Source: Euglena gracilis (Eukaryota). From it: a stretch of DNA of 64,000 nt. Under the pieces are notes generated by a model. It made no database searches. It had not been told where the DNA came from and was given only the letters and a program-made list of their open reading frames with translations. Position 1 is the stretch's first letter. Every line of letters starts with the position of its first letter. The position numbers and the translations under genes are program-made. Where the stretch lies: assembly GCA_039621445.1 (NCBI GenBank), contig CP154954.1:38301703-38365702 (forward strand). The letters run 5' to 3'. This document shows, piece by piece, positions 1 through 64,000 of the stretch.

Positions 1-1048
1 GGACACTCGGCCAAGGGGGGGGGTCCCTATTTTGCCATGCCGAGGGCGCCAAAGAAAATTTTCTTGGAAAACCCCCGCGCACCCCTCCCCCCCCCATCCG
101 GGACCCCCTCGCCACGCCAAAACCCCCCCCTGGCCGGACGGCTTGCCATGGCATGCCCACCCCCCGGGGGGTGGGCAGGGGGGCGGCCGCCCCCCCCTGA
201 GGTATTTTCGTCCTCCCCACCGAGGATTTTCTTGACTCAAAACTTTTTCACCCCCCTCCGAAAAAAAGTTACCCTCCAAAAAATTTTTGCAGTTTGTGAA
301 AAAATTCTTTCAGGCTCAGAACCCAACTTTTCATTGAATTTCCAAGTTTGTGCTGTTGGACATCGCTACTGTCTCGCCGCCCTTTGGGCGGACAAACAAG
401 CCCAAAACTAATGGGTTGGAGGGGGAAAAAGTCTTCCTTTTTTCGATTTGGGGTTGTTGTTTGTCAATATCTCCATTGCAGCACATGTATCTTGACTAGG
501 CTGGTAACGTTCAATTTTTAAGAGAGCAACCAATTTCTGTTGACAAATTTGCTCTTTTTGGGGAAGCTTTTTTGGGAAAATTGCACTACCGTCCAGCCGC
601 CCTTCAGGCGGAAATAGATTTTTTTTGTTCCATGCAAAATGCCTCAGAGGGGGCGGGTTTTGGGAAACAACCTCTTTTTTTTTTGCATTTTGTTCTCGTT
701 TGAAACCCCAAAGCACAAAAGGCAACACCGTCTTGCCGCCCGTTGGCGGCTTGAATGCTTCCAAATTGTGATGGATTTGTGCCATCATGTCAATAATTTA
801 CCACATTTTTTTGTCACGTTCAATGCCTTCTTTCAAAAAAAAGCACTACCGTCTCGCCGCCCTTCGGGCGGGAAAAAGAAAACAACACACACAATATTGG
901 TCACAGGGGTTTTTTTTAGTCGTGGACCCCTGAGGGGGGGGGTAGGGTGGGTGGGTCTCCCCCTCGGGGAGGTCCCCCCTGTGGGGAGTGGGATATGCTT
1001 TGGCGCCAAAAATTTTTGAAAAGGTGCTATGTTTGGAATTTTTCTGTT

Positions 1049-29347: not shown

Positions 29348-32300
29348 CTCCAGCACCACCTCCCTCCCGCCGCCGATCACTTGGTGACCGCCGGCGCCTC
29401 TCCCCTTCCTCAGCCACACAATTGCTCCGGACCAAAAACCACATCTTTGGTGAGAAAAGTCGGACAGAATCTCATTAAAATGTGGGGGAATCTCACAAAT
29501 TGTGAAGGAAAATGCCAACTGCAAAGACCTCCACCAGGGAAAATATCCATGATGAGCACCCCATGACGCAACCACCCGGGGCAATTTGGGCAAACCTGGA
29601 GTATTTCCCCTATTTGGAGCAATTGCATGCTGACAATTCCTCCCCGCCCCTCTCCCTCCTCTCCCCGCCGCCCTCCCCCTTCCACTCGCCCTCCCCATGC
29701 CGGCGCACAGGGTTGCATGGGAAGCTCCGCAGACATGAGGTAGTTGGCAGGGGAGGGTCACCCCCCCCGCCAGGGGGGTACGGTGGCGAGGGGGATCCAC
29801 CCCCCCCCAGTGTCAAAAGGAGGGTCCCCCCACCCCCCTCCCCCTCCTCCCCCTCCAAAAAAAATCTTCCGACGCTTCGCACTAAGTGTGCATTTTGGGA
29901 CTCTCTTGAGGCTCAGCATGAAATTTCGGCAAAATGGCCAAAAACGACGTCACTCGGGACAGGCGGGGAGTTGTGGGGAAATCAAAATACTGTTAGATGG
30001 GCCATTTTAAGGGCTGCAATTTTGTTCTCCGGACATTTCCTCTAATTCCCTGCCATTTTGAGAAATACCAGAAATTGATTTTTTGACCTCCCCAAAAAAC
30101 GGCCAAAATTTTCGACAACCGAAAACTGGGGGTTGGAGGCGGGGTCCTCCCAACCCCCCCCCCCATTTTGGAAGGATGCTGCCCCCACTCCCATCCCTCC
30201 TCCGAGATCCCATGCGGCCCTGCCGCCGCATCACCTGGTGATCGCCGGCCCGCCGCCCTCCCCCTTCGCCTCGCCTCGCCCTCCCCACGCCGGCACACAG
30301 GATTGCATGGGAAGTTTCGGAAGGAAGTCCGCAGACAGAGGTTGGTGGTAGCAACCCCCCCCGGGGGGGGGGCAAGCTGGCGGGGGGCCATTTCTGAGAA
30401 ATGCCCAAAAAGCTGATTTTTTTAACCCGGAAAATGGCCAAAAATTTCGGCAACCGAAAACTGGGGGTCGGAGGCGAGGACCCCCCCCCCAGCTTTGGAA
30501 GGGTGCTCCCCCCCACTCCCTCCTCCGAGATTCCCATGCGGCCCTGCCGCCGCATCACCTGGTGATCGCCGGCCCCGCCGCCCTCCCCCTTCGCCTCGTC
30601 GCCCTCCCCCTTCGCCTCGCCCTCCCCACGCCGGCACACAGGGTTGCATGGGAAGTTCCGCAGGCAGAGGTTGGTGGTAGCAACCCCCCCCCGGGGGGGG
30701 GCAAGGTGGCGGGGGGCCATTTCTGAGAAATGCCCAAAAAGCTGATTTTTTTAACCCGGAAAATGGCCAAAAATTTCGGCAACCGAAAACTGGGGGTCGG
30801 AGGCGAGGTCCTACCCCCCCCCCCCCCCAGCTTTGGAAGGGTGCTCCCCCCACTCCCTCCTCTGAGATTCCCATGCGACCCTGCCGCCGTATCACCTGGT
30901 GATCGCCGGCCCCCCCCCCCCCCCCCCTCGCCTCCTCCCCCCCACGCCGGCACACAGGGTTGCATGGGAAGTTCCGCAGACAGAGGTTGGTGGTAGCAAC
31001 CCCCCCCCCGGGGGGGGGCAAGGTGGCGGGGGGCCATTTCTGAGAAATGCCCAAAAAGCTGATTTTTTTAACCCGGAAAATGGCCAAAAATTTCGGCAAC
31101 CGAAAACTGGGGGTCGGAGGCGAGGTCCTACCCCCCCCCCCAGCTTTTGAAGGGTGCTCCCCCCCCACTCCCTCCTCTGAGATTCCCATGCGACCCTGCC
31201 GCCGTATCACCTGGTGATCGCCGGCCCCGCCGCCCTCCCCCTTCGCCTCGCCCTCCCCACGCCGGCACACAGGGTTGCATGGGAAGTTCCGCAGGCAGAG
31301 GTTGGTGGTAGCACCCCCCCCCCTGGGGGGGCAAGGTGGCGGGGGGCCATTTCTGAGAAATGCCCAAAAAGCTCATTTTTTTAACCCGGAAAATGGCCAA
31401 AAATTTCGGCAACCGAAAACTGGGGGTCGGAGGCGAGGTCCTCCCACCCCCCCCCCCAGCTTTGGAAGGGTGCTCCCCCCACTCCCTCCTCTGAGATTCC
31501 CATGCGACCCTGCCGCCGTATCACCTGGTGATCGCCGGCCCCGCCGCCCTCCCCCTTCGCCTCGTCGCCCTCCCCCTTCGCCTCGCCCTCCCCACGCCGG
31601 CACACAGGGTTGCATGGGAAGTTCCGCAGGCAGAGGTTGGTGGTAGCACCCCCCCCCCTGGGGGGGCAAGGTGGCGGGGGGCCATTTCTGAGAAATGCCC
31701 AAAAAGCTGATTTTTTTTAACCCGGAAAATGGCCAAAAATTTCGGCAACCGAAAACTGGGGGTCGGAGGCGAGGTCCTCCCCCCCCCCCCCCCCAGCTTT
31801 GGAAGGGTGCTCCCCCCCCACTCCCTCCTCCGAGATTCCCATGCGGCCCTGCCGCCGCATCACCTGGTGATCGCCGGCCCCGCCGCCCTCCCCCTTCGCC
31901 TCGCCATTCTCCCGGTGGCCCCCATCCTGGCCCTCCCGGCCCCCGCCCTGGCCCTCCCGGCCCCCGCCCTGGCCCTCCCGGCCCCCGCCCTGGCCCTCCC
32001 GGCCCCCGCCCTGGCCCTCCCGGCCCCCGCCCTGGCCCTCCCGGCCCCCGCCCTGGCCCTCCCGGCCCCCGCCCTGGCCCTCCCGGCCCCCGCCCTGGCC
32101 CTCCCGGCCCCCGCCCTGGCCCTCCCGGCCCCCGCCCTGGCCCTCCCGGCCCCCACCGTGTTGGCCCTCCCAGCGCCCACCCCGCTGGCCACACCATTGC
32201 TCAACGCCGGTCCTACCCCAACCGGGGGGCCGGGGGGGGGGGGTGGTGACCAACTGGTTTCTTCAGAGTGACTGACTGGTTTTTTGCCCCCCCCCAAGGG

Positions 32301-45500: not shown

Positions 45501-48500
45501 CGTGATTTTTTGGGGCCAGATTGCCTCAATGGCAGGAATTTGGGGGGTGCCAAAAGTGCGACCAGCCCCCGGGACCAGGTCGGCTGGGTTCCCCGCCCCC
45601 AAAAACCCCACTGTCACCGGAACCACTGCTGTTAAAACACCCCGCAATAGCGAAATTTTGGCCATTTTTAAGTGTAATTCGGGGCGGGGGCGGGGGGTGG
45701 GGGGGGGGGCGTGATTTTTTGGGGCCAGATTGCCTCAATGCCAGGAATTTGGGGGGTGCCAAAAAGTGCGACCAGGCCCCCGGGACCAGGCCAGCTGGGT
45801 TCCCCGCCCCCAAAAACCCCACTGTCACCGGAACCACTGCTGTTAAAACACCCCGCAATAGCGAAATTTTGGTAATTTTTAAGTGTATTTCAGGGCGGGG
45901 GACAGGATGGGGGGGGGGCGTGATTTTTTGGGGCCAGATTGCCTCACTGCCAGGAATTTGGGGGGTGCCAAAAAGTGCGACCAGCCCCCGGGACCAGGTC
46001 GGCTGGGTTCCCCACCGCCAAAAACCCCACTGTCACCGGAACCACTGCTGGTAAAACACCCCGCAAAAGCGAAATTTTGGTAATTTTTAAGTGTAATTCG
46101 GGGCGGGGGCGGGGGGTGGGGGGGCGTGATTTTTTGGGGCCAGATTGCCTCAATGCCAGGAATTTGGGGGGTGCCAAAAAGTGCGACCAGCCCCCGGGAC
46201 CAGGCCAGCTGGGTTCCCCGCCCCCAAAAACCCCACTGTCACCGGAACCACTGCTGTTAAAACACCCCAAAAGCGAAATTTTGGTAATTTTTAAGTGTAA
46301 TTCGGGGCGGGGGCGGGGGGTGGGGGGGCGTGATTTTTTGGGGCCAGATTGCCTCAATGCCAGGAATTTGGGGGGTGCCAAAAAGTGCGACCAGCCCCCG
46401 GGACCAGGCCAGCTGGGTTCCCCGCCCCCAAAAACCCCACTGTCACCGGAACCACTGCTGGTAAAACACCCCGCAATAGCGAAATTTTGGTAATTTTTAA
46501 GTGTAATACGGAGCGGGGGCGGGGGGTGGGGGGGGGCGTGATTTTTTGGGGCCAGATTGCCTCAATGGCAGGAATTTGGGGGGTGCCAAAAAGTGCGACC
46601 AGCCCCCGGGACCAGGTCGGCTGGGTTCCCCACCCCCAAAAACCCCACTGTCACCGGAACCACTGCTGGTAAAACACCCCGCAATAGCAAAATTTTGGCC
46701 ATTTTTAAGTGTAATTCGGGGCGGGGCCGGGAAGTGGAGGGGGGGCGTGATTTTTTGGGGCCAGATTGCCTCAATGCCAGGAATTTGGGGGGTGCCAAAA
46801 AGTGCGACCAGCCCCCGGGAGCAGGTCGGCTGGGTTCCCCACCCCCAAAAATCCCACTGTCACCGGAACCACTGCTGGTAAAGCACCCCGCAATAGCGAA
46901 ATTTTGGTTATTTTTAAGCGTAATTCGGGGCGGGGGCGGGGGGTGGAGGGGGCGTGATTTTTTGGGGCCAGATTGCCTCAATGCCAGGAATTTGGGGGGT
47001 GCCAAAAAGTGCGACCAGCCCCCGGGACCAGGTCGGCTGGGTTCCCCACCCCCAAAAACCCCACTGTCACCGGAACCACTGCTGGTAAAACACCCCGCAA
47101 TAGCGAAATTTTGGTAATATCTAAGTGTAATTCGGGGCGGGGGCGGGGGGTGGAGGGGGCGTGATTTTTCGGGGCCAGATTGCCTCAATGCCAGGAATTT
47201 GGGGGGTGCCAAAAAGTGCGACCAGCCCCCGGGACCAGGTCGGCTGGGTTCCCCACCCCCAAAAACCCCACTGTCACCGGAACCACTGCTGGTAAAACAC
47301 CCCGCAATAGCGAAATTTTGGTAATATCTAAGTGTAATTCGGGGCGGGGGCGGGGGGTGGAGGGGGCGTGATTTTTCGGGGCCAGATTGCCTCAATGCCA
47401 GGAATTTGGGGGGTGCCAAAAAGTGCGACCAGCCCCCGGGACCAGGTCGGCTGGGTTCCCCGCCCCCAAAAACCCCACTGTCACCGGAACCACTGCTGGT
47501 AAAACACCCCGCAATAGCGAAATTTTGGTTATTTTTAAGTGTAATTCGGGGCGGGGGCGGGGGGTGGAGGGGGCGTGATTTTTTGGGGCCAGATTGCCTC
47601 AATGCCAGGAATTTGGGGGGTGCCAAAAAGTGCGACCAGCCCCCGGGACCAGGTCGGCTGGGTTCCCCACCCCCAACCCCACTGTCACCGGAACCACTGC
47701 TGGTAAAACACCCCGCAATAGCGAAATTTTGGTAATATCTAAGTGTAATTCGGGGCGGGGGCGGGGGGTGGAGGGGGCGTGATTTTTCGGGGCCAGATTG
47801 CCTCAATGCCAGGAATTTGGGGGGTGCCAAAAAGTGCGACCAGCCCCCGGGACCAGGTCGGCTGGGTTCCCCGCCCCCAAAAACCCCACTGTCACCGGAA
47901 CCACTGCTGGTAAAACACCCCGCAATAGCGAAATTTTGGTAATTTTTAAGTGTAATTCGGGGCGGGGGCGGGGGGTGGGGGGGGCGTGATTTTTTGGGGC
48001 CAGATTGCCTCAATGCCAGGAATTTGGGGGGTGCCAAAAAGTGCGACCAGCCCCCGGGACCAGGTCGGCTGGGTTCCCCACCCCCAACCCCACTGTCACC
48101 GGAACCACTGCTGGTAAAACACCCCGCAATAGCGAAATTTTGGTAATTTTTAAGTGTAATTCGGGGCGGGGGCGGGGGGTGGAGGGGGCGTGATTTTTCG
48201 GGGCCAGATTGCCTCAATGCCAGGAATTTGGGGGGTGCCAAAAAGTGCGACCAGCCCCCGGGACCAGGTCGGCTGGGTTCCCCGCCCCCAAAAACCCCAC
48301 TGTCACCGGAACCACTGCTGGTAAAACACCCCGCAATAGCGAAATTTTGGTTATTTTTAAGTGTAATTCGGGGCGGGGGCGGGGGGGCGGGATGTTTTGG
48401 GGTCAGATTGCCTCAATGCCAGCAAGTTGGTGGGTGCCAAAAAGTGCGACCAGCCCCCAGGACCAGGTCGGCTGGGTTCCCCACCCCCAAAAACCCCACT

Positions 48501-51500
48501 GTCACCGGAACCACTGCTGGTAAAACACCCCGCAATAGCGAAATTTTGGTAATATCTAAGTGTAATTCGGGGCGGGGGCGGGGGGTGGAGGGGGCGTGAT
48601 TTTTCGGGGCCAGATTGCCTCAATGCCAGGAATTTGGGGGGTGCCAAAAAGTGCGACCAGCCCCCGGGACCAGGTCGGCTGGGTTCCCCGCCCCCAAAAA
48701 CCCCACTGTCACCGGAACCACTGCTGGTAAAACACCCCGCAATAGCGAAATTTTGGTAATTTTTAAGTGTAATTCGGGGCGGGGGCTGGGGGGGGGCGTG
48801 ATTTTTTGGGGCCAGATTCCCTCAATGCCAGGAATTTGGGGGGTGCCAAAAAGTGCGACCAGCCCCCGGGACCAGGTCGGCTGGGTTCCCCACCCCCAAA
48901 AACCCCACTGTCACCGGAACCACTGCTGGTAAAACACCCCGCAATAGCGAAATTTTGGCCATTTTTAAGTGTAATTCGGGGCGGGGGCGGGGGTGGGGGG
49001 GGGCGTGATTTTTTGGGGCCAGATTGCCTCAATGCCAGGAAATTGGGGGGTGCCAAAAAGTGCGACCAGCCCCCGGGACCAGGTCGGCTGGGTTCCCCGC
49101 CCCCAAAAACCCCACTGTCACCGGAACCACTGCTGGTAAAACACCCCACAATAGTGAAATTTTGGTAATTTTTAAGTGTAATTCGGGGCGGGGGTTGGGG
49201 GGGGGCGTGATTTTTTGGGGCCAGATTGCCTCAATGGCAGGAATTTGGGGGGTGCCAAAAGGTGCGACCAGCCCCCGGGACCAGGTCGGCTGGGTTCCCC
49301 GCCCCCAAAAACCCCACTGTCACCGGAACCACTGCTGGTAAAACACCCCGCAATAGCGAAATTTTAGTAGTTTTTAAGTGTAATTCGGGGCGGGTGGGGG
49401 GGGCGTGATTTTTGGGGGCCAGATTGCCTCAATGCCAGGAATTTGGGGGGTGCCAAAAGGTGCGACCAGCCCCCGGGACCAGGTCGGCTGGGTTCCCCGC
49501 CCCCAAAAACCCCACTGTCACCGGAACCACTGCTGTTAAAACACCCCGCAATAGCGAAATTTTGGTAATTTTTAAGTGTAATTCGGGGCGGGGGGTGGGG
49601 GGGGGCGTGATTTTTTGGGGCCAGATTGCCTCAATGGCAGGAATTTGGGGGGTGCCAAAAAGTGCGACCAGCCCCCGGGACCAGGTCGGCTGGGTTCCCC
49701 GCCCCCAAAAACCCCACTGTCACCGGAACCACTGCTGTTAAAACACCCCGCAATAGCGAAATTTTGGCCATTTTTAAGTGTAATTCGGGGCGGGGGCGGG
49801 GGGTGGGGGGGGGCGTGATTTTTTGGGGCCAGATTGCCTCAATGCCAGGAATTTGGGGGGTGCCAAAAAGTGCGACCAGGCCCCCGGGACCAGGCCAGCT
49901 GGGTTCCCCACCCCCAAAAACCCCACTGTCACCGGAACCACTGCTGTTAAAACACCCCGCAATAGCGAAATTTTGGTAATTTTTAAGTGTAATTCGGGGC
50001 GGGGGCGGGGGGTGGGGGGGCGTGATTTTTTGGGGCCAGATTGCCTCAATGCCAGGAATTTGGGGGGTGCCAAAAAGTGCGACCAGCCCCCGGGACCAGG
50101 TCGGCTGGGTTCCCCACCGCCAAAAACCCCACTGTCACCGGAACCACTGCTGGTAAAACACCCCGCAAAAGCGAAATTTTGGTAATTTTTAAGTGTAATT
50201 CGGGGCGGGGGCGTGGGGTGGGGGGGCGTGATTTTTTGGGGCCAGATTGCCTCAATGCCAGGAATTTGGGGGGTGCCAAAAAGTGCGACCAGCCCCCGGG
50301 ACCAGGTCGGCTGGGTTCCCCGCCCCCAAAAACCCCACTGTCACCGGAACCACTGCTGTTAAAACACCCCGCAATAGCGAAATTTTGGTAATTTTTAAGT
50401 GTAATTCGGGGCGGGGGCGGGGGGTGGGGGGGGCGTGATTTTTTTGGGGCCAGATTGCCTCAATGCCAGGAATTTGGGGGGTGCCAAAAAGTGCGACCAG
50501 CCCCCGGGACCAGGTCGGCTGGGTTCCCCACCGCCAAAAACCCCACTGTCACCGGAACCACTGCTGGTAAAACACCCCGCAATAGCGAAATTTTGGTAAT
50601 TTTTAAGTGTAATTCGGGGCGGGGGCGGGGGGTGGGGGGGGCGTGATTTTTTGGGGCCAGATTGCCTCAATGCCAGGAATTTGGGGGTGCCAAAAAGTGC
50701 GACCAGCCCCCGGGACCAGGTCGGCTGGGTTCCCCACCCCCAAAAACCCCACTGTCACCGGAACCACTGCTGGTAAAACACCCCGCAATAGCGAAATTTT
50801 GGTTATTTTTAAGTGTAATTCGGGGCGGGGGCGGGGGGTGGAGGGGGCGTGATTTTTTGGGGCCAGATTGCCTCAATGCCAGGAATTTGGGGGGTGCCAA
50901 AAAGTGCGACCAGCCCCCAGGACCAGGTCGGCTGGGTTCCCCACCCCCAAAAACCCCACTGTCACCGGAACCACTGCTGGTAAAACACCCCGCAATAGCG
51001 AAATTTTGGCCATTTTTAAGTGTAATTCGGGGCGGGGGCGGGGGGTGGAGGGGGCGTGATTTTTTGGGGCCAGATTGCCTCAATGCCAGGAATTTGGGGG
51101 GTGCCAAAAAGTGCGACCAGCCCCCAGGACCAGGTCGGCTGGGTTCCCCACCCCCAAAAACCCCACTGTCACCGGAACCACTGCTGGTAAAACACCCCGC
51201 AATAGCGAAATTTTGGTAATTTTTAAGTGTAATTCGGGGCGGGGGCGGGGGGTGGGGGGGCGTGATTTTTTGGGGCCAGATTGCCTCAATGCCAGGAATT
51301 TGGGGGGTGCCAAAAAGTGCGACCAGCCCCCGGGACCAGGTCGGCTGGGTTCCCCACCCCCAAAAACCCCACTGTCACCGGAACCACTGCTGGTAAAACA
51401 CCCCGCAATAGCGAAATTTTGGTAATTTTTAAGTGTAATTCGGGGCGGGGGCGGGGGGTGGGGGGGGAGTTGGGGGGGGTGTGATTTTTTGGGGCCAGAT

Positions 51501-53480
51501 TGCCTCAATGCCAGGAATTTGGGGGGTGCCAAAAAGTGCGACCAGCCCCCGGGACCAGGTCGGCTGGGTTCCCCACCCCCAAAAACCCCACTGTCACCGG
51601 AACCACTGCTGGTAAAACACCCCGCAATAGCGAAATTTTGGTAATTTTTAAGTGTAATTCGGGGCGGGGGCGGGGGTGGGGGGGGCGTGATTTTTTGGGG
51701 CCAGATTGCCTCAATGCCAGGAAATTGGGGGGTGCCAAAAAGTGCGACCAGCCCCCGGGACCAGGTCGGCTGGGTTCCCCGCCCCCAAAAACCCCACTGT
51801 CACCGGAACCACTGCTGGTAAAACACCCCGCAATAGCGAAATTTTGGTAATTTTTAAGTGTAATTCGGGGCGGGGGCGGGTGGGGGGGGCGTGATTTTTG
51901 GGGGCCAGATTGCCTCAATGCCAGGAATTAGGGGGGTGGCAAAAAGTGCGACCAGCCCCCGGGACCAGGTCGGCTGGGTTCCCCGCCCCCAAAAACCCCA
52001 CTGTCACCGGAACCACTGCTGGTAAAACACCCCGCAATAGTGAAATTTTGGTAATTTTTAAGTGTAATTCGGGGCGGGGGGTGGGGGGGGGCGTGATTTT
52101 TTGGGGCCAGATTGCCTCAATGGCAGGAATTTGGGGGGTGCCAAAAGGTGCGACCAGCCCCCGGGACCAGGTCGGGTGGGTTCCCCGCCCCCAAAAACCC
52201 CACTGTCACCGGAACCACTGCTGGTAAAACACCCCGCAATAGCGAAATTTTAGTAGTTTTTAAGTGTAATTCGGGGCGGGTGGGGGGGGCGTGATTTTTG
52301 GGGGCCAGATTGCCTCAATGCCAGGAATTAGGGGGGTGCCAAAAAGTGCGACCAGCCCCCGCTACCAGGTCGGCTGGGTTCCCCACCTCCAAAAACCCCA
52401 CTGTCACTGGAACCACTGCTGGTAAAACACCCCGCAATAGCGAAATTTTGGTAATTTTTAAGTGTAATACGGAGCGGGGGCGGGGGGTGGGGGGGGCGTG
52501 ATTTTTTGGGGCCAGATTGCCTCAATGCCAGGAAATTGGGGGGTGCCCAAAAGTGCGACCAGCCCCCGGGAGCAGGTCGGCTGGGTTCCCCGCCCCCAAA
52601 AACCCCACTGTCACCGGAACCACTGCCGGCAAAACACCGATGGTAAAACACCCCCGCAATAGCGAAATTTTGGTTATTTTTAAGTGTAATTCGGGGCGGG
52701 GGGGGGGGGGGGGTGGGGGGGGTGATTTTTCGGGGCCAGATTGCCTCAATGCCACGAAATTGGGGGGTGCCAAAAAGTGCGACCAGCCCCCGGGACCAGG
52801 TCGGCTGGGTTCCCCACCCCCAAAAACCCCACTGTCTCCGGAACCACTGCTGGTAAAACACCCCGCAATAGCGAAATTTTGGCCATTTTTCAGTATAATT
52901 CGGGGCGGGGGCGGGGGGTGGGGGGGCGTGATTTTTTGGGGCCAGATTGCCTCAATGGCAGGAATTTGGGGGGTGCCAAAAAGTGCGACCAGCCCCCGGG
53001 ACCAGGTCGGCTGGGTTCCCCACCCCCAAAAACCCCACTGTCACCGGAACCACTGCTGGTAAAACACCCCGCAATAGCGAAATTTTGGCCATTTTTCAGT
53101 ATAATTCGGGGCGGGGGCGGGGGGTGGGGGGGGCGTGATTTTTTGGGGCCAGATTGCCTCAATGGCAGGAATTTGGGGGGTGCCAAAGAGTGCGACCAGC
53201 CCCCGGGACCAGGTCGGCTGGGTTCCCCGCCCCCAAAAACCCCACTGTCACCGGAACCACTGAGGGTAAAACACCCCGCAATTGTGTAAGTTTGGCCATT
53301 TTTCAGTATAATTCGGGGCGGGGGGGTGGGGGGGGCGTGAGTTTTTGGGAATTGGGGGGTGCCAAAAAGTGCGACCGTGCCCCCGGGACCAGGTCAGCTG
53401 GGTTCCCCACCCCCATTGTCACCGGTAAAACACCTTACAATAGGGATTTTTGACAGTTTTTCAGTATAATTCGGGGTGGG
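33560..53480. repeat. Satellite of about 207-bp units, roughly 95 copies, G-run rich, inside a predicted GT-AG intron (33471-53867)
   Basis: Unit gggccagattgcctcaatgccaggaattt...taattcggggcgggggcgggggg repeated head to tail; degenerate at both edges. Confidence 0.95.
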
Positions 53481-53867
53481 GGTTCGGGGCAGGCTTCTTT
53501 TTAATTCACCTGACCCCCCCCTCCCCCGGGGGAGGGGGGTGGGTGGGTGGGTCTGGGCCGGACCCCCTGGGGGGTGGGGGGTCTGCGCCGGGTGTACGTT
53601 TTTGGCGCAAAGCGCCGAAAAACGTTGACAATTGCCTTTAACGCGCCTGATTTTGGGGGAGGGATCCCCGCCCCCCGGGGGGTCCACCCTGGGGACCCCC
53701 TTTCCCCCGGGGGGTCATAAAAAGAAGCCTGTTGGGGGGCGCGTGTTTTTTCGGGGCAGATTCAAAAAGTGCGACCAGCCTCCGGGACCAGTTCAGCTGC
53801 GTGCTTCTCAGCGTGCGTGTGGGAAAGCCTTCGTGCTCTGCCACCATCTCAATCCAAATCTCCACAG

Positions 53868-56800
53868 GTCCCGCCACCCGCCGCCTACGTCGCCCCCGCC
53901 GTGCTCCTGCAGGAAGCGGACGAGAAGGCAGCGGAGCACGAGCGGGATCGCCACGCAGGCCCCGGTGGCCAGGAAAATATGGGCCATCAAAGAAATACCA
54001 GGGGTGCACACAATCATTTGCCCCCCTGTGCTTTCGCGACTCCGCTATGACCCCCCTCCCGTCACAGACACAGCGTCCTGGCGCAAAGCATAAGGCCGAA
54101 AACCCTTGGACCCAAAAGTGGCCAAAAATCAGCCAAAAATTTTTTGGGCAAAGAATTGCCGAAATTTCACAAAAGGGTTTCCCGCACCTCACCCCCGCCT
54201 TTGCAGTCTCTTCACCAATCCAGGGGGGATCACTGACTGGGTTTTGTCCCTGTCCACCTCCCTCCAGAAGCAGTCATCGCAAAGGTGACCCGGCCGCATA
54301 TTATTTCTGCCATTTTTTCCCCGTTCCAGATTCCAGAGCACCTGACCCCGGGGGGGGGGGACTGGCTGGATTTCCAAACTGCCTGGTTCTTGGTGACTGC
54401 CTGGTTTTCGGAAGAGTGGACCCCTGGGGGAGGGGTCGGCCGATGGTTGCCCACCCCTCTGTCCTCTTCTCCTCCGGGGTGGGAGGTTGGACAGGGGTGA
54501 GAATATTTTTCCCTGGCATTGGATTCTTGAAGCCCCCTCCCCTCATTTGGCAGTTTTACATTACTCTGCGGGGGGTCGACCCCCCCCCCCCATACTTGAA
54601 TAACACCCCCCCTCTCCGGGGCCGATTTCGAGCGCCCAAATATCACCCCCCTAATTTCTTTTGGTTTTCCATGTAAAAATAACACCCCCCCCCAAATTAC
54701 CCCCCCCCCCCGGGGCCCAGGGTGCCCAAGTAACACAAGGGGGGGGGTGTTATTTGGGGGGGGGGTTATTTGGATGGCAGCCATATTCTAAATGGCCCCC
54801 CTGGTCACTCTAAATGGCCCCCCCTGGCATTTTTTCGTTAATGATGGAGTAGGTTTAGGTGCGCGACTTAGGCTTAGGGTTAGGCCTAACTTGTACACCG
54901 AACACCCATCTATAAGTTAGGCCTAACCCTAAGCCTAAGTCGCGCACCTAACCCTACTCCATCATTAACACAAAAAAACTATTTTGACCCCCCTGGTCAC
55001 TCTAAATGGCCCCCCAGGGGGGGGCATTTAGAGTATGGCTGCCATTTGGATATCCAGGGTAGGGTGTGTACATTGCGGCCGTGTCTTGCTTGTGTCTGCT
55101 TCATGGCCAGGGTGGGGGATCATCATCCCAAAACCCGGCGTTTGTTCGGATTCCACGCGTGGTGCTTTCATTCTGCAGTTTCTGTTTATCACAAACCCCC
55201 CCGGAAAGTGCCACCAGCAGCCACCACCACATCTGCATCTGTCCCAAAATCAGAAAAATGGGTTTTTTTTGCGCCAAACCAGAAATTTTTTTCAGCACAA
55301 AACTCCCATGGTTTTTAAAGAAGGTCAATGGCTTCCCCCCAGAGGTTTTTGTTCTGAGGGTCCCACACCACGCAGAGGCGTTGGAAAGACGCCTGCATTG
55401 CAATTGTGGTGAAGCCCCCCCCCATCAGTCCAGCACGGCCTGGGGGCAACACCAGCTCCATCCGCCCCAAAACTTGCTGGCCCGCGCGCGCCGCGCTGCC
55501 AACCCACTGCGTGGGATTCGGCAGCTGCTTGAGCAGGCGGTTTTTTTTTGTGGTGTTTATCGAAACAACAAAACAAAACAAACAAAAAGCAGCCTGCCGC
55601 CGAATATTGGTGGCTAATCGAGACCCCCGCGGAGAGGACAACCAGGGCAGAACGGGAGGCCAACCACACCACCGTATTTCCGGGAACACCAATTTTCGAC
55701 CCCAAAGTTTTTTTCCGGCGCCAAAGGGGCGGGGAAAAAATTGTCATGTACGTTATCTAATAAGGTCTATCAATGTTATCTGATAAGAAATCTGTGAAAT
55801 TGCCGTGGTGGGGTGGGGGGTCAAACACCCGCCTCCCGGGTGGACCAGGCCTTCCCGTTCTGCCCTGGGGACGGCGAAGGAGATCCAGGTCCGCCACGCG
55901 GTGGCGGACCCGGACCTCTGTGCCCGCTGCCGCCCACGCCCTTCCTTAAATGTGTGCCCTTCTGTTAAATGTGCGTTGTGGTGACCCAGACAGTGCAAAG
56001 ATAATTTAATTACAAATATCTGTCAGAAGTGCCATTTTCGGTTGGAAGGAAACTGACTTTTGGGGACGGGGGATTTCCGTGGGGGGGGGAAGCCCCCCCC
56101 CACCCCTGCTTGTCAAGGACCTCATTCCCATGCATGTTAACACAATGACAAAGTAACGAAGGGCGTGGGGCCACCACCGTCGGCTGGGGATGGTGCAGGC
56201 GGAGGTCGCCGGGCGCAGCGTGCCACTGTGCCCTGCCTGCCGCTTCGCCACGGTGTGTTCTGCCTTGCCCTTTGCTTCTTCCGAATCTCTTTTCATTTTC
56301 ATTGTGCACCCCTGTCCCCTGGAATTCTGGATTCAACCTGGACAGTTCTCTTCAAAAGCCACCTGTGGGGGACAGGGGTTTTTTTGGTCGTGGACCCCGG
56401 GGGCAGGGTTCGATATAAGGAGGGCGTACATGGTTTAGGTGGGGGGTGTCCCCCCCACCCCCCCCCCTCCTGGCCCGCAGGGGGGGGTCAGGACCACCCC
56501 CCCCCCACCTGCAAGGGGGGTCCGGACCGACCCTCGGGGGGGGGTACCCGGGACCCCCCCCCCAAAAAGGGGCAATTTTTTCCTCCGGCGCTTTGCGCCG
56601 AATTTTTTTTTGCATTTTTGGCCAATTTTTGCCCAAAAAGTGCCCAAAATGGCACTTTTGGTCGTCTTGGGGGGTCAAAAATTTTCGGCCCGGCGCTTTG
56701 CGCTGGGCCGAAAATCGGTCACCCTGACCGCGCCACTGTTTAGGTGGGGGGGTGTCCCCCCCACCCCCCCCCCCCTCCTGGCCCGCAGGGGGGGGGGCCG

Positions 56801-59404
56801 GACCCCCCCCCCCTCCTCTCCTTATATCGAACCCTGCCCGGTGGGGGGGGGTTGGGAAGGGTTTGATATAAGGAGGCGTACATGGTTCAGGTGGGGGGGT
56901 GTCCCCCCCCCTCCTGGCCTGCAGGGGGGTCCGGACCACCCCCCCCTCCTCTCCTTATATCGAACCCTGGGGTAGGGTGGGTGGGTCCAGCCGAGCCCCC
57001 CCCCCCCCGGGGGGGTCCCACCGGAGGGGGGTGGGATATGCTTTTCGGCGCTGAAGGCGCCGAAAGTGCTATTTTTAGCACTTTCATGGTGTCCAGGCCC
57101 AGTGCTAACTCAGAAGACCCCGTGCCACGGGACTGTGTGGAGGTCGGTGCGTTTGGGGTTTGTCCGGGTTCCAAATGGATCGGGGGTGTGCTGGATCTTC
57201 ACTCAACTGGCAGTAACAAAGTGTCAAGCGTTAGTTTTAGCAAGGGGAGGGAAGGCAAGGGGAACGCAAATGTTTTTTTTGCATTATTTGTGTTTTTCTA
57301 TTTTGATAAAATTTGTGTTTTTATGTCTGTTGTTGTTGTTGTTGTTATTGTTGTTGTTGCATTTTGTTTTTTTTTCCGTCCCGATTTTCTAGTTTCAAAA
57401 AGGGTTTGGGCAAAGGTAAGGGTCAAGGTCTTTTTGACAATGAAAAATTGCTCGTTTTGCCCTCGATTTTCCCCCGAGACCAAAAATTCTGTCGACCTTT
57501 TGTCATTTGCCCGATGGAGAAGTTTTTCCCCTGTGTTGAGTGAACAGTGGTCTTGCGGGAGGGGGGGGTGCGGGGAAAGAGTGGTTAGACCCCCCGGGGG
57601 GAGGGTGGGTCCAGACCCCCCCTTCAGACCGAGGGGTCTGGGACCCCCGGAAACCCAGAAAGAATAAAAAATGGGTGGTGCATTGTTTGGCTGATTTTTC
57701 AAAAAAAATATGTGCGAAAACTCGATTTTTTGGTTTTTTTCGTTGCCAGAAATTTTTTTGCACAATCCAACCCCCCCCAACACTCATTTAATACCCTGCC
57801 CGAGGGATGGGGGCAGGCTTCTTTTTAAGTCAGCAGACCCCCCCGGGGGGGGGAGGGAGGGTGGGTGCCAGACATTTATTCAGTGTGGTATACCAACGTT
57901 GTCATTTTGTGGTTCACCGTGGACACCGAGAGTTTTTTTGTGGTTCACCTGTTGACACCAAAAAAGAATTTGTGGTTCACACATCTTTTGTGAGCCACAC
58001 TAAATGAATGTCTGGTGGGTGGGGGGGTCCGGGGCCGGACCCCCCGGGGGGTGGGTCCCGCGCCGGGTATACCTTTTCGGCGCGAAGCACCGAAAATTTT
58101 TGAAAATTGCCTTTAACGGGCCCGATTTTGGGGTCCCCCCCGGGGTCCCGCGCCACCCTGGGTGGGTGGGGGACCCCCCTGGATGGGGGTCCGGACCCTC
58201 CCAGGCTGTGTTTCAGATTTACAACCTCAAATGCCCCTGCCTCTCACAGTTCGAGAGCGCGCTGCTGGCGCGTGAGGCAGCGAGGGAACGACCGCCCCGC
58301 GCACCGCGAACGGTATGTCATTGCTTGCGCCCCACATCCGCCTGATCTTTGCTCACGTCTCCACAAATTTCTCCGGAATGAATTAAAAAAACTGATAAAA
58401 TTCAAAAGAAGACAGATTTGGTGAAATGCAGCTTTCTAAAGGCGATAACAATGGCGAGGGATGCACATGGGTTTCTGTTTGATTCTTTGCAATGCGCACC
58501 CCCCGGGGGGGGGGGCTATTGGCAGGCAGGGGTAGGGCATTTTCGACCCCTCTGGAGGGGAGTCGGGGTTTGGGGTGGGTTGGCGCCACAGCACACCCCC
58601 TGACGCCGAATGGCCCAAAAATGGCCTCCAAAAAATGACCTGGCTGGTAGGCTCCGAGAGGCACAATACCCCCCCCCCCCAGGTTGATGAAAAGAAGCCT
58701 GATCCTCTGACGTTGCCCCCCAAATGTTTTGCATTTTGTGGGTTGACTCGCAGAACATCGTACATTTTTTTACCGCATTGGTTGCCATGACAGAATTTCG
58801 CTCATATTCTCTAAACATGCGGCTGGTGCTGGTGCCCCCCATGTCCATTGCTGCACAGGGGACATTTTCGCTCTGGAGGGGAGTCGGGGTTGGGGTGGGT
58901 TGGCGCCACCACCCCCCCCCCCGAATGGCCCCTCCCAAAAAACCTCCAATCCCCCCCCCCCCCAAACCCCCTGACGTTGCCCCCCAAATGTTTTGCATTT
59001 TGGGTTGACTCGCAGAACAAACACCCACCCCCCCCAAAATTATCAAAAAACCACTTCCCCTCTCACGCCCCCCTGCTGCTCGCCCCCATCGTCGCCGCGG
59101 GCTGGACGCACAGGGCCGAGTGGCGTCGGCATTTGGGGTCAGAGAAACGGGAAGGTGAAATTTGGGAGCACAACCCGGAGTGGAGCCGGCTTCCTGGGTC
59201 AGGTTTGAATTACTGCCAGCGTTGCGTTTCACTCCCATTCAGAGGAATTTGGCTGAAACATTGTAAGCCTGGTTTTTTTTTTTTGTTCTTGGGGGTTAGA
59301 TTGGTGCTGTTGACCCCCAGCCAAATCGAGTCAACATGTTTTGTTGAGATGTTGAATATTTTCCTTTTTTCATCATCATCATCATCGTCATCATCATTAT
59401 TGTC

Positions 59405-59439
<35 letters not shown>

Positions 59440-59478
59440 CATCATCATCATCATCATCATCATCATTATTATTGTTGC

Positions 59479-59532
<54 letters not shown>

Positions 59533-59593
59533 TGCTATTATTATCATTATCATCATCATCATCATTATTCTTATTCTTATTCTTCTTCTTCTT

Positions 59594-59624
<31 letters not shown>

Positions 59625-59769
59625 TTATCATCATCATCATCATCATCATCATTATTATTATTATTACCATCATCATCATCATCATCATTATTATTATTAC
59701 CATCATCATCATCATCATCATCATTATTATTATTACCATCATCATCATCATCATCATTATTATTATTAC

Positions 59770-59806
<37 letters not shown>

Positions 59807-62273
59807 GTCATCATCATCATCATCAGGTGCATTGACCTACCAATGGGCCCTGCTGTTGATCCTGCCGACCACCGACAGCCGCCTGGCCAACGCGCTGGCA
59901 TGGCTGGCCAGGGTTGTATGGGAAGCTCCGCAGACATGACGCAGGTGGCAGGGGGTCCCCCCCTAGGGGGGTAAGGTGGCAGGGGGGTCCCCCCACCCCC
60001 GTCCCCCCGGTTTCGGAAGGGGGTCCCCCACCCACCCCCCTCCCCCTCCTCTGCAGGGGCAAATAAAAATCTTCCGGTGTGCATTTTTGGACCCTCTTGA
60101 AGCTCGATATGAAATTTTGGCAAAACGGCCAAAATTGGTCGAAAAATGGCTGTAACTTGGGCCAGGAGGGGAGTTGAGGGGAAATCAAAATGGCATTTCA
60201 AGGCTTCAATTTAGGTATCTGACATTTTGTCCACCATTTTTGAGGAATTTCAGAAGAATTGATGTTTTTGACCCAAACAGGGCCAAATTTTTCGGCGACT
60301 GAATACTGGAGGTAGGGGGGTCCCCCCTCCCCCCCCCCCTCCCCCCCCCCCCAGTTTTGGAAGGGGAGCCCCCCCCCCTCGAGATTCCCATACAAGCCTG
60401 CGGCTGGCGGTGGTCTCCACGTACAGCTCGCTGTACGTGGACTGCCTGCGGCCGCGGCTGCGGTGGGTCGCCGGGCTGTACCCGTGCACCGCAAGCGGGG
60501 GGCCCTTTGCGGTTGCATTTCAAGGGGCGGAGGGTTGCCTTCAAGTTCATTCGCAAACCCCCAACGGATTTGTCTCTCATCCAAATCCAACCTCCCCCCC
60601 CCCCCCCCCCTGGCAGAGGGCCCTCCGCCGCCAGCCGTCGCCGCCATCGTCCATGCCATCGACCGCCGCCTGCGCGAACAAGTCGAGGGCAACGGCTACG
60701 GCGGGCCACACCCTGGCTCACCCCCCCCCCCCCGTTGGCTTGGCTTGGGGTCTCCCTGGTCCCTCCCCAGGGATGGATTGGAAGCATTTTGGTTTGAAGG
60801 TGGGTGAGGGGGCCCCTTCCTGGAGGTTGGGGGGGTCCGGACCCCCCCTGCTTTATGACAAAAATATTTCTTTTGGCGCGCCGGAAAATGAACAAAAATG
60901 CCCCTTTTCCTCACTTTTGAGCATATTGCGCATTTTTGGGGTGCTTTCCGCAGCTAAAGTGTTCACAATTTTCAAGGAATTCATTTTCAAAGAAAAATCA
61001 AGGGATTTTCAACAATTTTGGTCTGGCCTCCAAGACACTCTGGACCCCCCCCCCCGGTTGGTAAAAAGCAGCCTGGTCCCCTCCCTCCCCCTGTCCCCTT
61101 TGAACCGGGGCGTGGCGGCACAACGCCGCCTACGCCGCCCTCCGCATGGCCCACACGTGGGCCATCATGGTGGGCGCCGTGGGCGACCTCGCCGTCCACG
61201 CCCTGCTGCTGGGGCCAGGCCTGTCCCCCCCTTTTTTCTATGGGCGGATGAGCGATGTTCCAAAAGTGCCAGGAATCACTTTTTTTCCCGAAGTCGACCC
61301 GTTTCGGGCAAAATACGGCCACTTTTCGGTCATGGATTTTCAAAAAAATTTCTCGGCTGTGCCGGGACGGGATTTTTTTTTTTTTTTTTTTTGCTTAAGG
61401 ACCGCCCTGGGTCCAACGGATGCCTCTCGGCTCACAATTTGAAGAAAGTTCTCCAAAGTTCTCCAAACCTCCCGGGCCGTTTGTTTCCCACCCCCACCCC
61501 AAGTGGGTTCCCGGGGGGGCCGGCCTGCGGCCAAGTGCCCGCCCCCTTCATCAACCCCACCACGCCCCTCCAGCGGTGGAGGGACGCGCAGCCGCCGCCG
61601 CCGCCCGGGCCCGTGGCGAAGGCGAAGGCGGTGGTGCGGGAGATCCGGCGCCGGCTGTGGCCTGCCGGGCAGGCCCTTCCTGAAGGGCACCCGCCCCTCC
61701 CCCTGCCTTTCTGCATTGCAAGTCCCACGCAGACAATCACTCACTGATCGGTATCCCATCCCGACCAGGTTTTTTTCAGCTTTGGACCTCCTGGGGGGGG
61801 GGGGGGGGAGGGGGGGGGGGGTCCAGCCAAGCCCCCCATGGGGGGGGGTCCCCCCAGGGGGAGTGGGATGCCCTTTTCGGCGCTGAAGGTGCCGAAATTT
61901 TTTGAAAAAGGTGCTTTTTTAGCATTTTTCGCGATTTTTCGGCCATTTTCGGTGGGTCCCCTGGGACCCCCCTGGGGTGGGTGGGGAGATTGACTGGTTT
62001 TTTGGGTGGATGTGACCCCTGGGATCAGTGTAAAGAACTTTGTGCAGTCCCCCCCTCAACACGGTCTCTTTGAAGAAGCGACAGGGTGCCAAGCCCCCCT
62101 CTTCTGGTGCAAATCCCAGGCACCCCTCCCCCGCCATCTTTGGCAACGGCCTGTCGCTGCCCGGCCTGCGGAGCCGCCTGCGCCGCCAGCCGCGCCGGCT
62201 GTCGCGCCAGCTGCGCTGCCAGCCGAGCTGCCGGCCGCGCCGGCCGCTGAAGCAGCAGCGGTGGCGCAACCCC
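53868..62273 (+). CDS. Multi-exon 3' part of the same unknown gene (CxxC...CxxC motif, hydrophobic segments, Pro/Ala-rich tail); runs on beyond the last exon identified
   Basis: Predicted exons 53868-53966, 54258-54284, 55456-55530, 55602-55639, 55873-55931, 56173-56252, 57114-57146, 58250-58312, about 59070-59107, 59858-59905, 60406-60492, 60618-about 60703, about 61108-61212, 61533-61666, 62159-62273. They join to VPPPAAYVAPAVLLQEADEKAAEHERDRHAGPG-LPPEAVIAK-LHPPQNLLARARRAANPLRGIRQLL-EYWWLIETPAERT-AKEIQVRHAVADPDLCARCH-HRRLGMVQAEVAGRSVPLCPACRFAT-KTPCHGTVWRS-FESALLAREAARERPPRAPRT...WTILPTTDSRLANALAWLAVVSTYSSLYVDCLRPRLRWVAGLYPCTAGPPPPAVAAIVHAIDRRLREQ...; GC3-rich codons. Junctions near 58313-59080 and 60703-61108 are unresolved. 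Confidence 0.7.
54784..55036. mobile_element. Palindromic MITE with a telomere-like internal hairpin
   Basis: TIR t(a)ttctaaatggccccc / ggggcatttagagta; arms gttaatgatggagtagg...ttagggttaggcctaactt / aagttaggcctaaccctaag...cctactccatcattaac. Confidence 0.75.
56404..56836. mobile_element. hAT-like MITE (TIR cagggttcgatataagg); related copies at about 56859-56969 and from 63886
   Basis: TIR ccttatatcgaaccctg at the right end; TSD cccggggg/cccggtgg. Confidence 0.75.
59371..59825. repeat. Compound trinucleotide microsatellite (CAT/TAT/CTT)n
   Basis: Direct reading; lies inside the predicted intron 59108-59857. Confidence 0.95.
59909..60400 (+). mobile_element. hAT-like MITE in coding sequence, forming predicted intron 59906-60405
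   Basis: TIR cagggttgtatgggaa...ttcccatacaagcctg; TSD tggctggc/cggctggc; same family as 29708-30222; removal restores ...ALAWLAVVSTY. Confidence 0.85.
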
Positions 62274-64000
62274 AGCCAGGGCACATAAAACATGGCACAC
62301 CAAGCGCACAACAAAATACAATTTCTTTCCAGGGGTTTTTTTCATCGTGGACTCCAGGGGGGGGGGGTAGGGTGGGTGGGTGGGGCCCCGGGACCCGGGG
62401 GGGGGGGCCCGCCGGAGGGGGCTGGGATGTACTTTTCAGCGCTTTTGGCGCAGAAATTTTTTGAAAAAGTGCTATTTTTTTAGCACTTTTCGCGATTTTC
62501 GGCCATTTTTTTTGTGGGTCCCCCGACCCCCCCCCCCCAGGGAGGCCCCTCCAGGGGTTGGTGGGCGGGGGACCTCCCCCCGGTCTTAAGAAAAACCCCT
62601 GCTCCTTTCTAAATGAATGGGGAACAGGGAATTTCTTAAGGGCCCCCCCGGGGGGGTCCAGCCCAGACAATTGCTTAAGCACTGTCCCACCCCCCCCCCC
62701 CCGGGGGGGGGGGTGACTGGTTTTTTCAGAGTGACTGACTGGTTTTGGGCCCGGACCCCCTCCCCCCCGGGGGGGGTCGGCCAGGAGTGGGCAAAAGTGG
62801 CTTGAGTGACCCCAGCGCCGAAGGCGCCGGAAAATTTTTTTTGACCTAAAATGGCCTAAAGTGACTGGAAAGTGGCCGTTTTTCTGAGTGGCCGACCCCC
62901 CCCGGGGGGGGGGGGTAGTGACTGGCTGGTTTTTTGAAAATGAGTGACTGACTGGTTTTTAAAAAAGTGGAGTGACCCCCTCCCCCCCCCCCCCCCCCCC
63001 GGGGGTCGGTAAGCAATTGTATGGTCCAGCCTCCGGCTGGCAAAAAAGGCTGCTGGCTGGATTTGAGCTGCTGGCTGGAACGACCCCCCCCCCGGGGGGG
63101 GGGGGGGGGGTGGGGGGTCCGGGACTGGAGGGGACTGGGCTGGGCTGGGTCGAGGAAAAACAAAATTTTCTAACACATTTTTGTCATTTTAGACGTTTTG
63201 ATGGGTGGAGCTAGATCAAGGCTGGGGGGCTGTGATGGAGGGCTGTGATGAGGAGAAAAAAAGCAAGGATAAGTGAGCTGGGCAGCCCAGTTGGCTGGCC
63301 CGCCTGCGGTTGGCTGGCCCGGCCTCCAGTTGGGCTGGACCCAGTTTTATTTTACTCGACCCCCAGGAGGGGGGCTCCCAGCCCGAATTTGGGCTGCTGG
63401 CTGGATTTGAGCTGCTGGCTGGCTGGACCCCCCCCCCCCGCGGGGGGTAGGGTACCCTCCGGCTTACAAAATTCCCTGATGGGGAAGGAGCAAAAAAAAA
63501 GACATTCAATGCATAACACATCCCATCTGGGGCTGGGGTTGAAAATCCATTTTTTCACTGAGGGCTTTCCAAAAGAGTTGCCAGAGCCCCCTGCTTCCCT
63601 GTCCAGGAAGTTTCTTCGCGTGAGTGATGAAGAATACTCGAAAACCAATGAAATTTTTACACGCAAAGTGAAAATTCAGCTCAAAAAACAAGAGAATGTT
63701 TTTTTGGAGATAATTAAGCATGGGGCGGTGTCTCTTTGGCTCGGGGCGGCTCACGGTTTTGATTTTTTTCCTCCTCGCCAGTGAACGTTTTTTGAGCCCG
63801 CCCAGCTTTGGCTTTGGTGGGGGATTGGCAATTTTCAGGTTGGGGCGCAGCTTAAGAAAATTTGATCCCATGGGGGGTTCCAGCCCAGGGTTCGATATAA
63901 GGAGGGCGCCCAGGGTTCAGGTGGGGGGTGTCCCCCCCCACCCCCCTCCTGGACCACCCTGCCAAGGGGGTCCGGACCAACCCTGGGGGGTTCCGGACCC

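What the first reader, a model, noticed from the sequence alone, without database searches (positions are those of the whole stretch)
59901..60408. An intact hAT-like MITE acting as a non-canonical intron: its 8-bp TSD explains the euglenid splice-site geometry
Seen: a 492-bp element with 16-bp TIRs starting CAG and ending CTG and an 8-bp TSD (tggctggc/cggctggc) sits in the middle of an ORF. Cutting 3 nt before CAG and 5 nt after CTG (t|ggcCAG...CTGcggct|g) removes exactly one TSD equivalent and restores W-L-A-V. The single TSD mismatch falls in the part that would be intronic. Established: euglenid nonconventional introns lack GT-AG, have paired CAG(+4..6)/CTG(-8..-6) ends and Y|R junctions, and hAT elements make 8-bp TSDs and often start CAG. 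A transposon origin of these introns has been proposed before. Inference: the +4/-6 offset is the 3+5 split of a hAT TSD, so such an insertion would be scarlessly spliceable, making these MITEs intron generators.
Basis: partly seen in the sequence, partly recalled or inferred. Interest (0 to 1): 0.92.

Follow-up and report, generated by a model that had tools for sequence, protein, structure and literature searches.

The report
Mini-transposon probably acting as Euglena intron
A 492-base jumping-DNA copy with an 8-base insertion scar sits inside a coding exon and has the end shape that Euglena's unusual splicing system cuts out, which fits the idea that these introns began as such insertions, although no spliced RNA was seen here and the class of transposon is not settled.

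Summary
In detail: a 492-bp CAG…CTG element (59909-60400, arms 15/16), flanks matching 7/8, repeated in the genome. It interrupts an exon of a predicted 12-exon, 320-codon gene. Six other predicted non-GT-AG introns there share the 3+5 geometry and keep the frame. In the window, 4 of 10 CAG…CTG pairs carry an 8-bp duplication and none carries another length from 6 to 12. The element meets every term of the published Euglena splicing code.

Not shown: splicing or transcription. Two RNA runs gave about zero exon depth and no junction was listed. In-frame GT-AG alternatives exist. The six other introns keep no duplication as a set (16/48). 'hAT' is unproven, because P elements also duplicate 8 bp.

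A MITE origin is in print since 2014. Published tables show perfect 5+3 repeats at 3 of 23 intron positions, one of them read by its authors as break repair. I found no paper equating 3+5 with a TSD. The scan has noted this idea on other DNA of this genome at least 18 times.

The parts
59827..59905 (+). Predicted coding exon upstream of the element (AG acceptor at 59825-59826)
   Evidence: GC3 0.88 in the model frame, stops in another frame; model frame scores best leave-one-out; no RNA support
59901..59908 (+). Left copy of the 8-bp target duplication (first 5 nt exonic, last 3 intronic under the code)
59909..59928 (+). Left terminal inverted repeat, starts CAG
   Evidence: 15/16 and 18/20 pairing; 34 contigs of run X20 leave the window at 59908/59909 into other flanks
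59909..60400 (.). 492-bp non-coding MITE, with a subterminal GGGGTCCCC motif four times and an AT-richer core
   Evidence: stops in all three + frames; motif at 59952, 59984, 60020, 60317, core 41% GC against 57% overall; 70.5% identical copy at 29708
60381..60400 (+). Right terminal inverted repeat, ends CTG
60401..60408 (+). Right copy of the target duplication (first 5 nt intronic, last 3 exonic; the exon starts with G)
59906..60405 (+). Predicted 500-nt nonconventional intron = element plus 3 + 5 flanking bases
   Evidence: inferred from the published code; terminal stem present in the MFE and centroid folds; not seen spliced
60406..60490 (+). Predicted coding exon downstream of the element
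   Evidence: GC3 1.00 in the model frame; same frame as the upstream exon after removal
53868..61670 (+). Host gene model: 12 exons, 320 codons without a stop, 7 predicted nonconventional introns, two CxxC motifs and hydrophobic segments; no known family; ends not defined; the junction 58312/59082 is unresolved
   Evidence: protein searches blank
29708..30222 (.). Second full-length member of the family (515 bp, flanks 7/8), followed by five internally deleted tandem copies up to 31851

Best explanation
A non-autonomous cut-and-paste element of a repeated family inserted into a coding exon of a Euglena-type gene and duplicated 8 bases. Its paired CAG…CTG ends are what the euglenid nonconventional splicing system reads. 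That system cuts 3 nt before CAG and 5 nt after CTG, in front of a purine, so it removes the element plus exactly one TSD's worth of bases and restores the reading frame. Shown here: element, duplication, repeated family, coding frame on both sides, fit to every term of the published code. Shown in print: the code is sufficient for splicing in knock-ins. Inferred: that this copy is transcribed and spliced; that the code's 3+5 offset descends from an 8-bp transposase footprint. The transposase class (hAT about 55%, P-like about 35%, other about 10%, my estimate) is open. Because both ends are symmetrical, either orientation should splice. A scarless cut needs a purine at TSD position 6 on the transcribed strand, which this copy has on + (G) and lacks on - (C).
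For: Element and 7/8 flanks. 4 of 10 CAG…CTG pairs in the unmasked window have at least 7/8 at k=8 and 0 of 10 at k=6, 7 and 9-12; mean identity 0.64 against a null of 0.27; other start triplets 5 of 725. Family: 34 contigs break off at 59908/59909; related copy at 29708. Gene model: 320 codons without a stop, all 7 predicted introns N3-core…core-N5 followed by a purine, model frame best in 11 of 12 exons. Code and its sufficiency with synthetic introns (PMC12501133). Published tables, counted by eye: 3 of 23 intron positions have a row with a perfect 5+3 repeat, in three genera, including the strain-specific new gapC intron. First-row tallies are G at exon -5 12/22, T at -4 9/23, A at +2 15/23 and C at +3 16/23, which resembles the GT…AC target motifs of hobo and P.
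Against: No spliced read or contig among the 15 joints shown (374 not shown). RNA depth over 60380-60519 is 0 in X21 and 0.15 in X24, from 12.9 and 8.3 million records read, with no positive control. No homologue confirms the protein. The six other predicted introns match at 16 of 48 positions in the 8-register against a null of 20.8 (p 0.94; individually 3, 2, 5, 5, 1, 0 of 8). In-frame GT-AG alternatives exist, one with an AG after a C-run at 60353-60354. Of 8 exonic differences I translated from the lay table, 4 are synonymous and 4 are not. Frame restoration at the focal site follows from the TSD alone and does not show splicing. The T at -4 tally is not significant (p 0.05-0.4), and all tallies are confounded by codon position. 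Two predicted introns have CAC…GTG cores, outside the published code. Whole-intron folding is not better than shuffles (z -0.70).
Confidence: 0.6

Rival explanations
1. The element is an ordinary MITE insertion in a silent or dead gene copy and is never spliced; its fit to the code follows from CAG ends plus an 8-bp TSD.
For: About zero RNA depth on the exons in 2 of 2 raw RNA runs; no protein relative; 4 of 8 exonic differences change the residue; most TSD-flanked elements of the window lie outside predicted exons.
Against: 320 codons without a stop across 11 junctions, GC3 0.87, model frame best in 11 of 12 exons. Only 5-6% of each RNA run was read and strain identity is unknown. The code is sufficient for splicing of artificial sequence.
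Confidence: 0.22
2. The element is removed by the ordinary spliceosome through a GT or GC donor upstream and an AG inside the element or the next exon, which changes the protein locally.
For: GT at 59855 is in frame with AG ends at 60354, 60363, 60396 and 60426. The AG at 60353-60354 follows a C-run, and C-rich tracts mark E. gracilis acceptors (PMC11170887).
Against: The donor reads GTTGAT, far from the GTGTG consensus. It would discard 17 codons with high GC3. Hybrid introns are 0.8% of introns and are thought to use the noncanonical route.
Confidence: 0.06
3. It is a nonconventional intron born from a transposon, but the 3+5 offset is set by the splicing machinery for its own reasons. Elements with 8-bp TSDs are simply those that survive in exons (a filter, not an origin), or the 8-nt repeats come from double-strand-break repair as proposed in 2016.
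For: The acceptor spacer tolerates 6 nt. Older introns here keep no repeat. The repair reading is in print (PMC4770533). One CAG-ended element in the window has a 7-bp duplication (27572-28048).
Against: 8-bp duplications also flank CAG-ended elements outside exons, where no splicing filter acts (56404, 57869, 62625). Repair gives no reason for a fixed length of 8 or for repeated TIR families (inference). Filter and origin are not exclusive.
Confidence: 0.12

Closest known systems
Euglenid nonconventional introns, code 5'-N3CDG…CH'GN5-6|R (PMC12501133; PMC3935182; PMC4770533; PMC11170887)
   Same: 3-nt spacer, CAG, paired ends, CTG, 5-nt spacer, purine at the exon start, slidable junction; also the CCAGG and CCTG consensus of E. 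gracilis.
   Different: Here the intron body is a recognisable member of a repeated TIR family with a near-intact 8-bp duplication. Excision was not observed.
Strain-specific gapC intron 4 of Euglena agilis ACOI 323 (PMC4770533)
   Same: A new nonconventional intron with an exact 8-nt repeat split 5+3.
   Different: CAT…ATG core, 160-162 bp; the authors read the repeat as a double-strand-break repair scar.
Introner elements of Micromonas, Fritillaria, Amoebophrya and Polarella (review PMC11282704)
   Same: MITE-like DNA elements with TIRs and TSDs that become introns on insertion.
   Different: Those are described as cut by a spliceosome using splice sites from the element or the TSD, with TSDs of 3-5 nt where stated. 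Here the signal is the paired TIR end itself, with both cuts inside an 8-bp TSD, and the machinery is unknown.
hAT-superfamily MITEs (BuT2-derived; hobo target motif)
   Same: 8-bp TSD, TIR of 10-25 bp, repeated subterminal motifs.
   Different: No autonomous partner found. An 8-bp TSD is shared with P elements and Merlin.
P-superfamily elements (P, 1360) and Merlin of E. gracilis
   Same: P: 8-bp TSD, motif GTCCGGAC; 1360: 7 bp. Merlin in E. gracilis: 8-bp TSD.
   Different: Merlin ends begin with GG, which this element lacks. That P-type ends begin with CA is recalled, not from a call.

Membership tests
Euglenid nonconventional intron | CDG at +4..+6 and complementary CH'G at -8..-6 | tested here: met
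   CAG 59909-59911 and CTG 60398-60400 for intron 59906-60405; register assumed within 8 slidable positions
Euglenid nonconventional intron | Base pairing inward of CAG/CTG | tested here: met
   15 of 16 pairs; stem in the MFE and centroid structures
Euglenid nonconventional intron | Purine at the first base of the downstream exon | tested here: met
   G at 60406; the opposite strand would give C
Euglenid nonconventional intron | Lies in a coding gene whose frame is restored by removal | tested here: met
   predicted model only; no homologue found
Euglenid nonconventional intron | Absent from mature RNA | tested here: inconclusive
   no exon coverage in 2 raw RNA runs, no junction among the joints listed
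Euglenid nonconventional intron | Host is a euglenid | tested here: inconclusive
   inferred from 7 in-frame introns of this geometry and C-rich acceptors; earlier scan notes name E. gracilis, unchecked
Euglenid nonconventional intron | Excised as a full-length circle, not a lariat | not testable with these tools
   described in review PMC11282704
MITE | Short, non-coding, with TIRs | tested here: met
   492 bp, stops in all + frames
MITE | Target site duplication | tested here: met
   7/8; empty site not seen
MITE | Many copies at different sites | tested here: met
   34 contigs with unlike left flanks at the exact boundary; second copy with another TSD; copy number not measured
hAT superfamily | 8-bp TSD | tested here: met
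   not diagnostic
hAT superfamily | Short TIR of 10-25 bp | tested here: met
   16-20 bp; range from PMC3942097
hAT superfamily | Autonomous element with these ends encoding a hAT transposase | not testable with these tools
   no whole genome held; 0 of 38 window ORFs reached a Pfam cut-off; an unchecked scan note reports a hAT gene elsewhere in the genome
hAT superfamily | Target motif of the hobo type (T at 2, A at 7) | tested here: inconclusive
   the focal TSD has G at both positions; published introns show a G/T…A/C bias; P has the same outer bases
P superfamily | 7- or 8-bp TSD | tested here: met
   8 bp here; a CAG-ended element with 7/7 at 27572-28048
P superfamily | P-type transposase with matching ends | not testable with these tools
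   no genome held
Merlin | TIR begins with GG | tested here: not met
   begins CAG; Merlin rule from PMC8101967

The most novel reading that the evidence does not exclude
The whole euglenid nonconventional splicing code is the footprint of CA-ended DNA transposons with 8-bp target duplications. CAG/CTG and the stem are the TIRs, the 3- and 5-nt spacers are one TSD, and Y|R at both junctions is one duplicated dinucleotide. The unexplained A/C bias at exon +2/+3 and a matching G/T bias at exon -5/-4 are the transposase's palindromic target preference. Euglenids would then run a dedicated RNA-level eraser for these insertions, so that about half of all exonic insertions, in either orientation, become clean introns at once. 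That would explain how such introns came to be about 70% of all introns in E. agilis. The transposase may be P-like rather than hAT.
Probability: 0.5. Interest if true: 0.82.

Novelty: new variant of a known kind. Interest (0 to 1): 0.55.

Why it matters
The origin of euglenid nonconventional introns (71.8% of E. agilis introns) and the reason for their lopsided 3+5 cut are open in the papers read. Equating the spacers with one 8-bp TSD turns a qualitative MITE hypothesis into numbers that existing genomes can test: repeat length, position-6 purine, target motif, orientation independence. It also names a class of transposase to look for. This locus alone is one more candidate example without RNA proof.

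Tried and rejected
Whole genome: not held, so no family census or transposase search was possible. Run search: no RNA holder listed; this is no evidence on expression. TIR pattern in metagenome contigs: 117 loci, none like the element beyond the 18-21 nt pattern; chance matches. Protein searches: 60401-60550 against longer proteins, 0 hits among 169 candidates; residues 420-468 of ORF 60272-61744, 0 of 27; 60401-60493 against 1.84 billion representatives, 0; Pfam, 0 of 38 ORFs at cut-off, two sub-threshold rows; Atlas on one exon, best 0.90 with no family. Only single exons or unspliced frames were searched, so sensitivity was low. Rfam over 53000-64000: 0. Scan notes by sequence and nearby: none. 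RNA depth at 60322-60352 is poly-C artefact. My first look for GT-AG alternatives found none because its range began at 59860; one search corrects this. The TIR scan masked satellites (2350-4500, 11800-23100, 31900-32160, 33600-53500, 59340-59830), dropped low-complexity arms (which removes the 7-bp case at 27572), dropped pairs whose palindrome runs on outwards, and collapsed tandem copies (the array is represented by 30639, 5/8, not by 29708, 7/8). Its non-CAG classes include inner offsets of the same elements and are not independent. Searches for published terminal consensus motifs of hAT and P gave nothing usable.

Full report
1. Observation. The flanks TGGCTGGC and CGGCTGGC match at 7 of 8, with a chance of about 0.001 at local composition. 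Removing the element plus 8 bases restores W-L-A-V, but all eight cuts after 59901-59908 give the same product. Retention stops the frame after 36 codons. The remark that the mismatch lies in the intronic part carries no weight: for any cut, each TSD position has one exonic and one intronic copy.

2. It is a repeated mobile element. A 515-bp relative at 29708-30222 aligns at 70.5% over 485 columns and has its own 7/8 flanks; five internally deleted tandem copies follow it. In run X20, 34 contigs leave the window at 59908/59909 into unlike sequence, and contig depth over the left end is about a thousand times that of single-copy bins; the tool warns that this is no copy number. In a scan of all start triplets, 4 of 10 CAG…CTG pairs have at least 7/8 identity at k=8 and none passes at k=6, 7 or 9-12. 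Mean identity at k=8 is 0.64 against 0.27 for mismatched pairs. Other starts give 5 of 725 (masks and dropped rows are listed under Tried and rejected). Three of the four lie outside predicted exons. One low-complexity CAG-ended element has a 7-bp duplication (27572-28048).

3. It interrupts coding sequence. Coding-like segments on + join into a 12-exon model from 53868 to 61670: 320 codons, no stop, GC 0.75/0.55/0.87 by codon position. Seven introns are of the paired-end type, each cut 3 nt before and 5 nt after a paired core and followed by a purine. A leave-one-out frame score picks the model frame in 11 of 12 exons. I built the model by hand with the code in mind; one junction (58312/59082) has a GT donor without an AG, and two cores are CAC…GTG, outside the published code. 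No relative of the protein was found. The host is inferred to be a euglenid from this intron geometry; scan notes name E. gracilis, which I did not check.

4. Splicing was not seen. In two raw RNA runs (12.9 and 8.3 million records, 5-6% of each run) depth over 60380-60519 was 0 and 0.15. No joint from 59905 to 60406 is among the 15 shown; 374 weaker ones were not shown. There was no positive control, so this means low or no expression in those samples, or another strain. In-frame GT-AG routes exist from a weak donor at 59855. Of 8 exonic differences I translated from the rows shown, 4 are silent and 4 are not, which says little. The six other predicted introns match at 3, 2, 5, 5, 1 and 0 of 8 in the TSD register, 16 of 48 against 20.8 expected, so this gene shows no general remnant.

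5. Mechanism. Knock-in genetics define the code as N3-CDG…CH'G-N5-6|R, with a strict 3-nt donor spacer, an optimal 5-nt acceptor spacer, required pairing and no requirement for the last donor base; synthetic introns that obey it are spliced (PMC12501133). An insertion with CAG…CTG ends and an 8-bp TSD obeys the code whenever TSD position 6 is a purine, and the cut then removes exactly one TSD. This copy has G there on + and C on -. That step follows from arithmetic and published genetics; that it happens at this locus is inferred. The model also accounts for Y|R at both junctions, reported in 49-55 of 55 introns.

6. Published data re-read. Counting by eye over 23 nonconventional intron positions in the junction tables of PMC3935182 and PMC4770533, three have a row with a perfect 5+3 repeat: gapC-4 of E. 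agilis ACOI 323, tubB-12 of Lepocinclis and tubB-13 of Monomorphina (there the repeat runs on to 10). The other 20 do not. The authors fitted slidable junctions to their consensus. First-row tallies of the exon bases give G at -5 in 12 of 22, T at -4 in 9 of 23, A at +2 in 15 of 23 and C at +3 in 16 of 23 (p 0.001-0.05, 0.05-0.4, at most 0.003 and at most 0.001 over background rates of 0.22-0.35). This resembles the target motifs of hobo (GTNCGNAC) and P (GTCCGGAC). The sample is small, hand-counted and confounded by codon position.

7. Which transposase. hAT elements have 8-bp TSDs and 10-25 bp TIRs, but P has 8 bp and its relative 1360 has 7. Merlin, reported in E. gracilis, has 8 bp with GG ends, which excludes it for this element. 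Two of the three perfect published cases have CAT…ATG cores, and the window has a 7-bp case; both would suit P-like elements, whose CA ends I recall and could not cite. No transposase was found in the window and no genome was held. 'hAT-like' is a fair description of shape and an unproven assignment.

8. What is known. A MITE origin was proposed in 2014 and repeated in 2024 with mention of TSD-like repeats and in 2025. An 8-nt repeat at a newly gained intron was reported in 2016 and ascribed to break repair. Searches, and the texts read, gave no statement that the 3+5 spacers equal a TSD or that hAT or P is the source; subscription papers are mostly outside the library. Seen: PMC12501133 parts 1-4 of 6, the supplement list, a term search of the supplements and Dataset S8 (figures, including the slide-distance plot that bears on this claim, not visible); PMC3935182 passages and its supplement; PMC4770533 passages, part of section 8 and its supplement; PMC11170887 parts 2-3 of 4 (24, 56); passages only of PMC11282704, PMC3942097, PMC3276498 and PMC8101967. 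The scan itself has recorded the same idea at 18 other places in this genome, several claiming RNA proof; these are unchecked notes and not independent evidence.

9. Verdict. A real MITE with an 8-bp duplication in a probably real exon, more likely than not a young nonconventional intron (0.6). The general link between the code and a transposon footprint is a testable refinement of a published hypothesis (0.5, interest 0.82 if true). For this locus, with no RNA and no transposase, interest is 0.55.

Noticed in passing
window 29640-32930: A second candidate gene: a Pro/Ala/Leu-rich repeat frame interrupted by six tandem copies of the focal family and two CAC…GTG elements. After 3+5 removal, 6 of 7 inner segments are multiples of 3. 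The three elements tested for strand (29708, 32190, 32574) fit the purine rule on + only. The element seems to have been amplified with the coding repeat.
   Followed up: partly
window 32190-32475 and 32574-32860; 55935-56167; 60707-61114: Elements and predicted introns with CAC…GTG cores, two with 7/8 and 8/8 duplications, outside the published CDG…CH'G code. They may extend the code.
   Followed up: partly
window 54776-55043: TIR element beginning GG with a perfect 8-bp duplication, the shape reported for Merlin.
   Followed up: partly
window 27572-28048: CAG…CTG element with a perfect 7-bp duplication; a P/1360-like length or an assembly slip.
   Followed up: no
window 56404-56836, 57869-58014, 62330-62601, 62625-63478: Four more CAG…CTG elements of other families with 7/8, 7/8, 6/8 and 8/8 flanks, outside predicted exons.
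   Followed up: partly
window 59909-59924 against 29708-29723: The two family members differ at position 9 of both arms at once (T/A against C/G), which keeps the pairing.
   Followed up: no
window 2160-4582: Coding-like fragments that recall a mitochondrial carrier (from memory, untested), split by a 2.3-kb insertion with inverted ends, a 12-bp direct repeat and an inner 34/78-bp satellite.
   Followed up: no
window 59340-59826: About 480 bp of mixed ATC/ATT/CTT microsatellite inside a predicted GT-AG intron, ending directly at the acceptor with no pyrimidine tract.
   Followed up: no
window 11855-23052 and about 33700-53500: Two large satellites: 71/88-bp units with strong G skew, and units of roughly 210 bp.
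   Followed up: no
window 4898-6720 and 4993-6400: Nested long inverted repeats, probably a larger element with further insertions.
   Followed up: no
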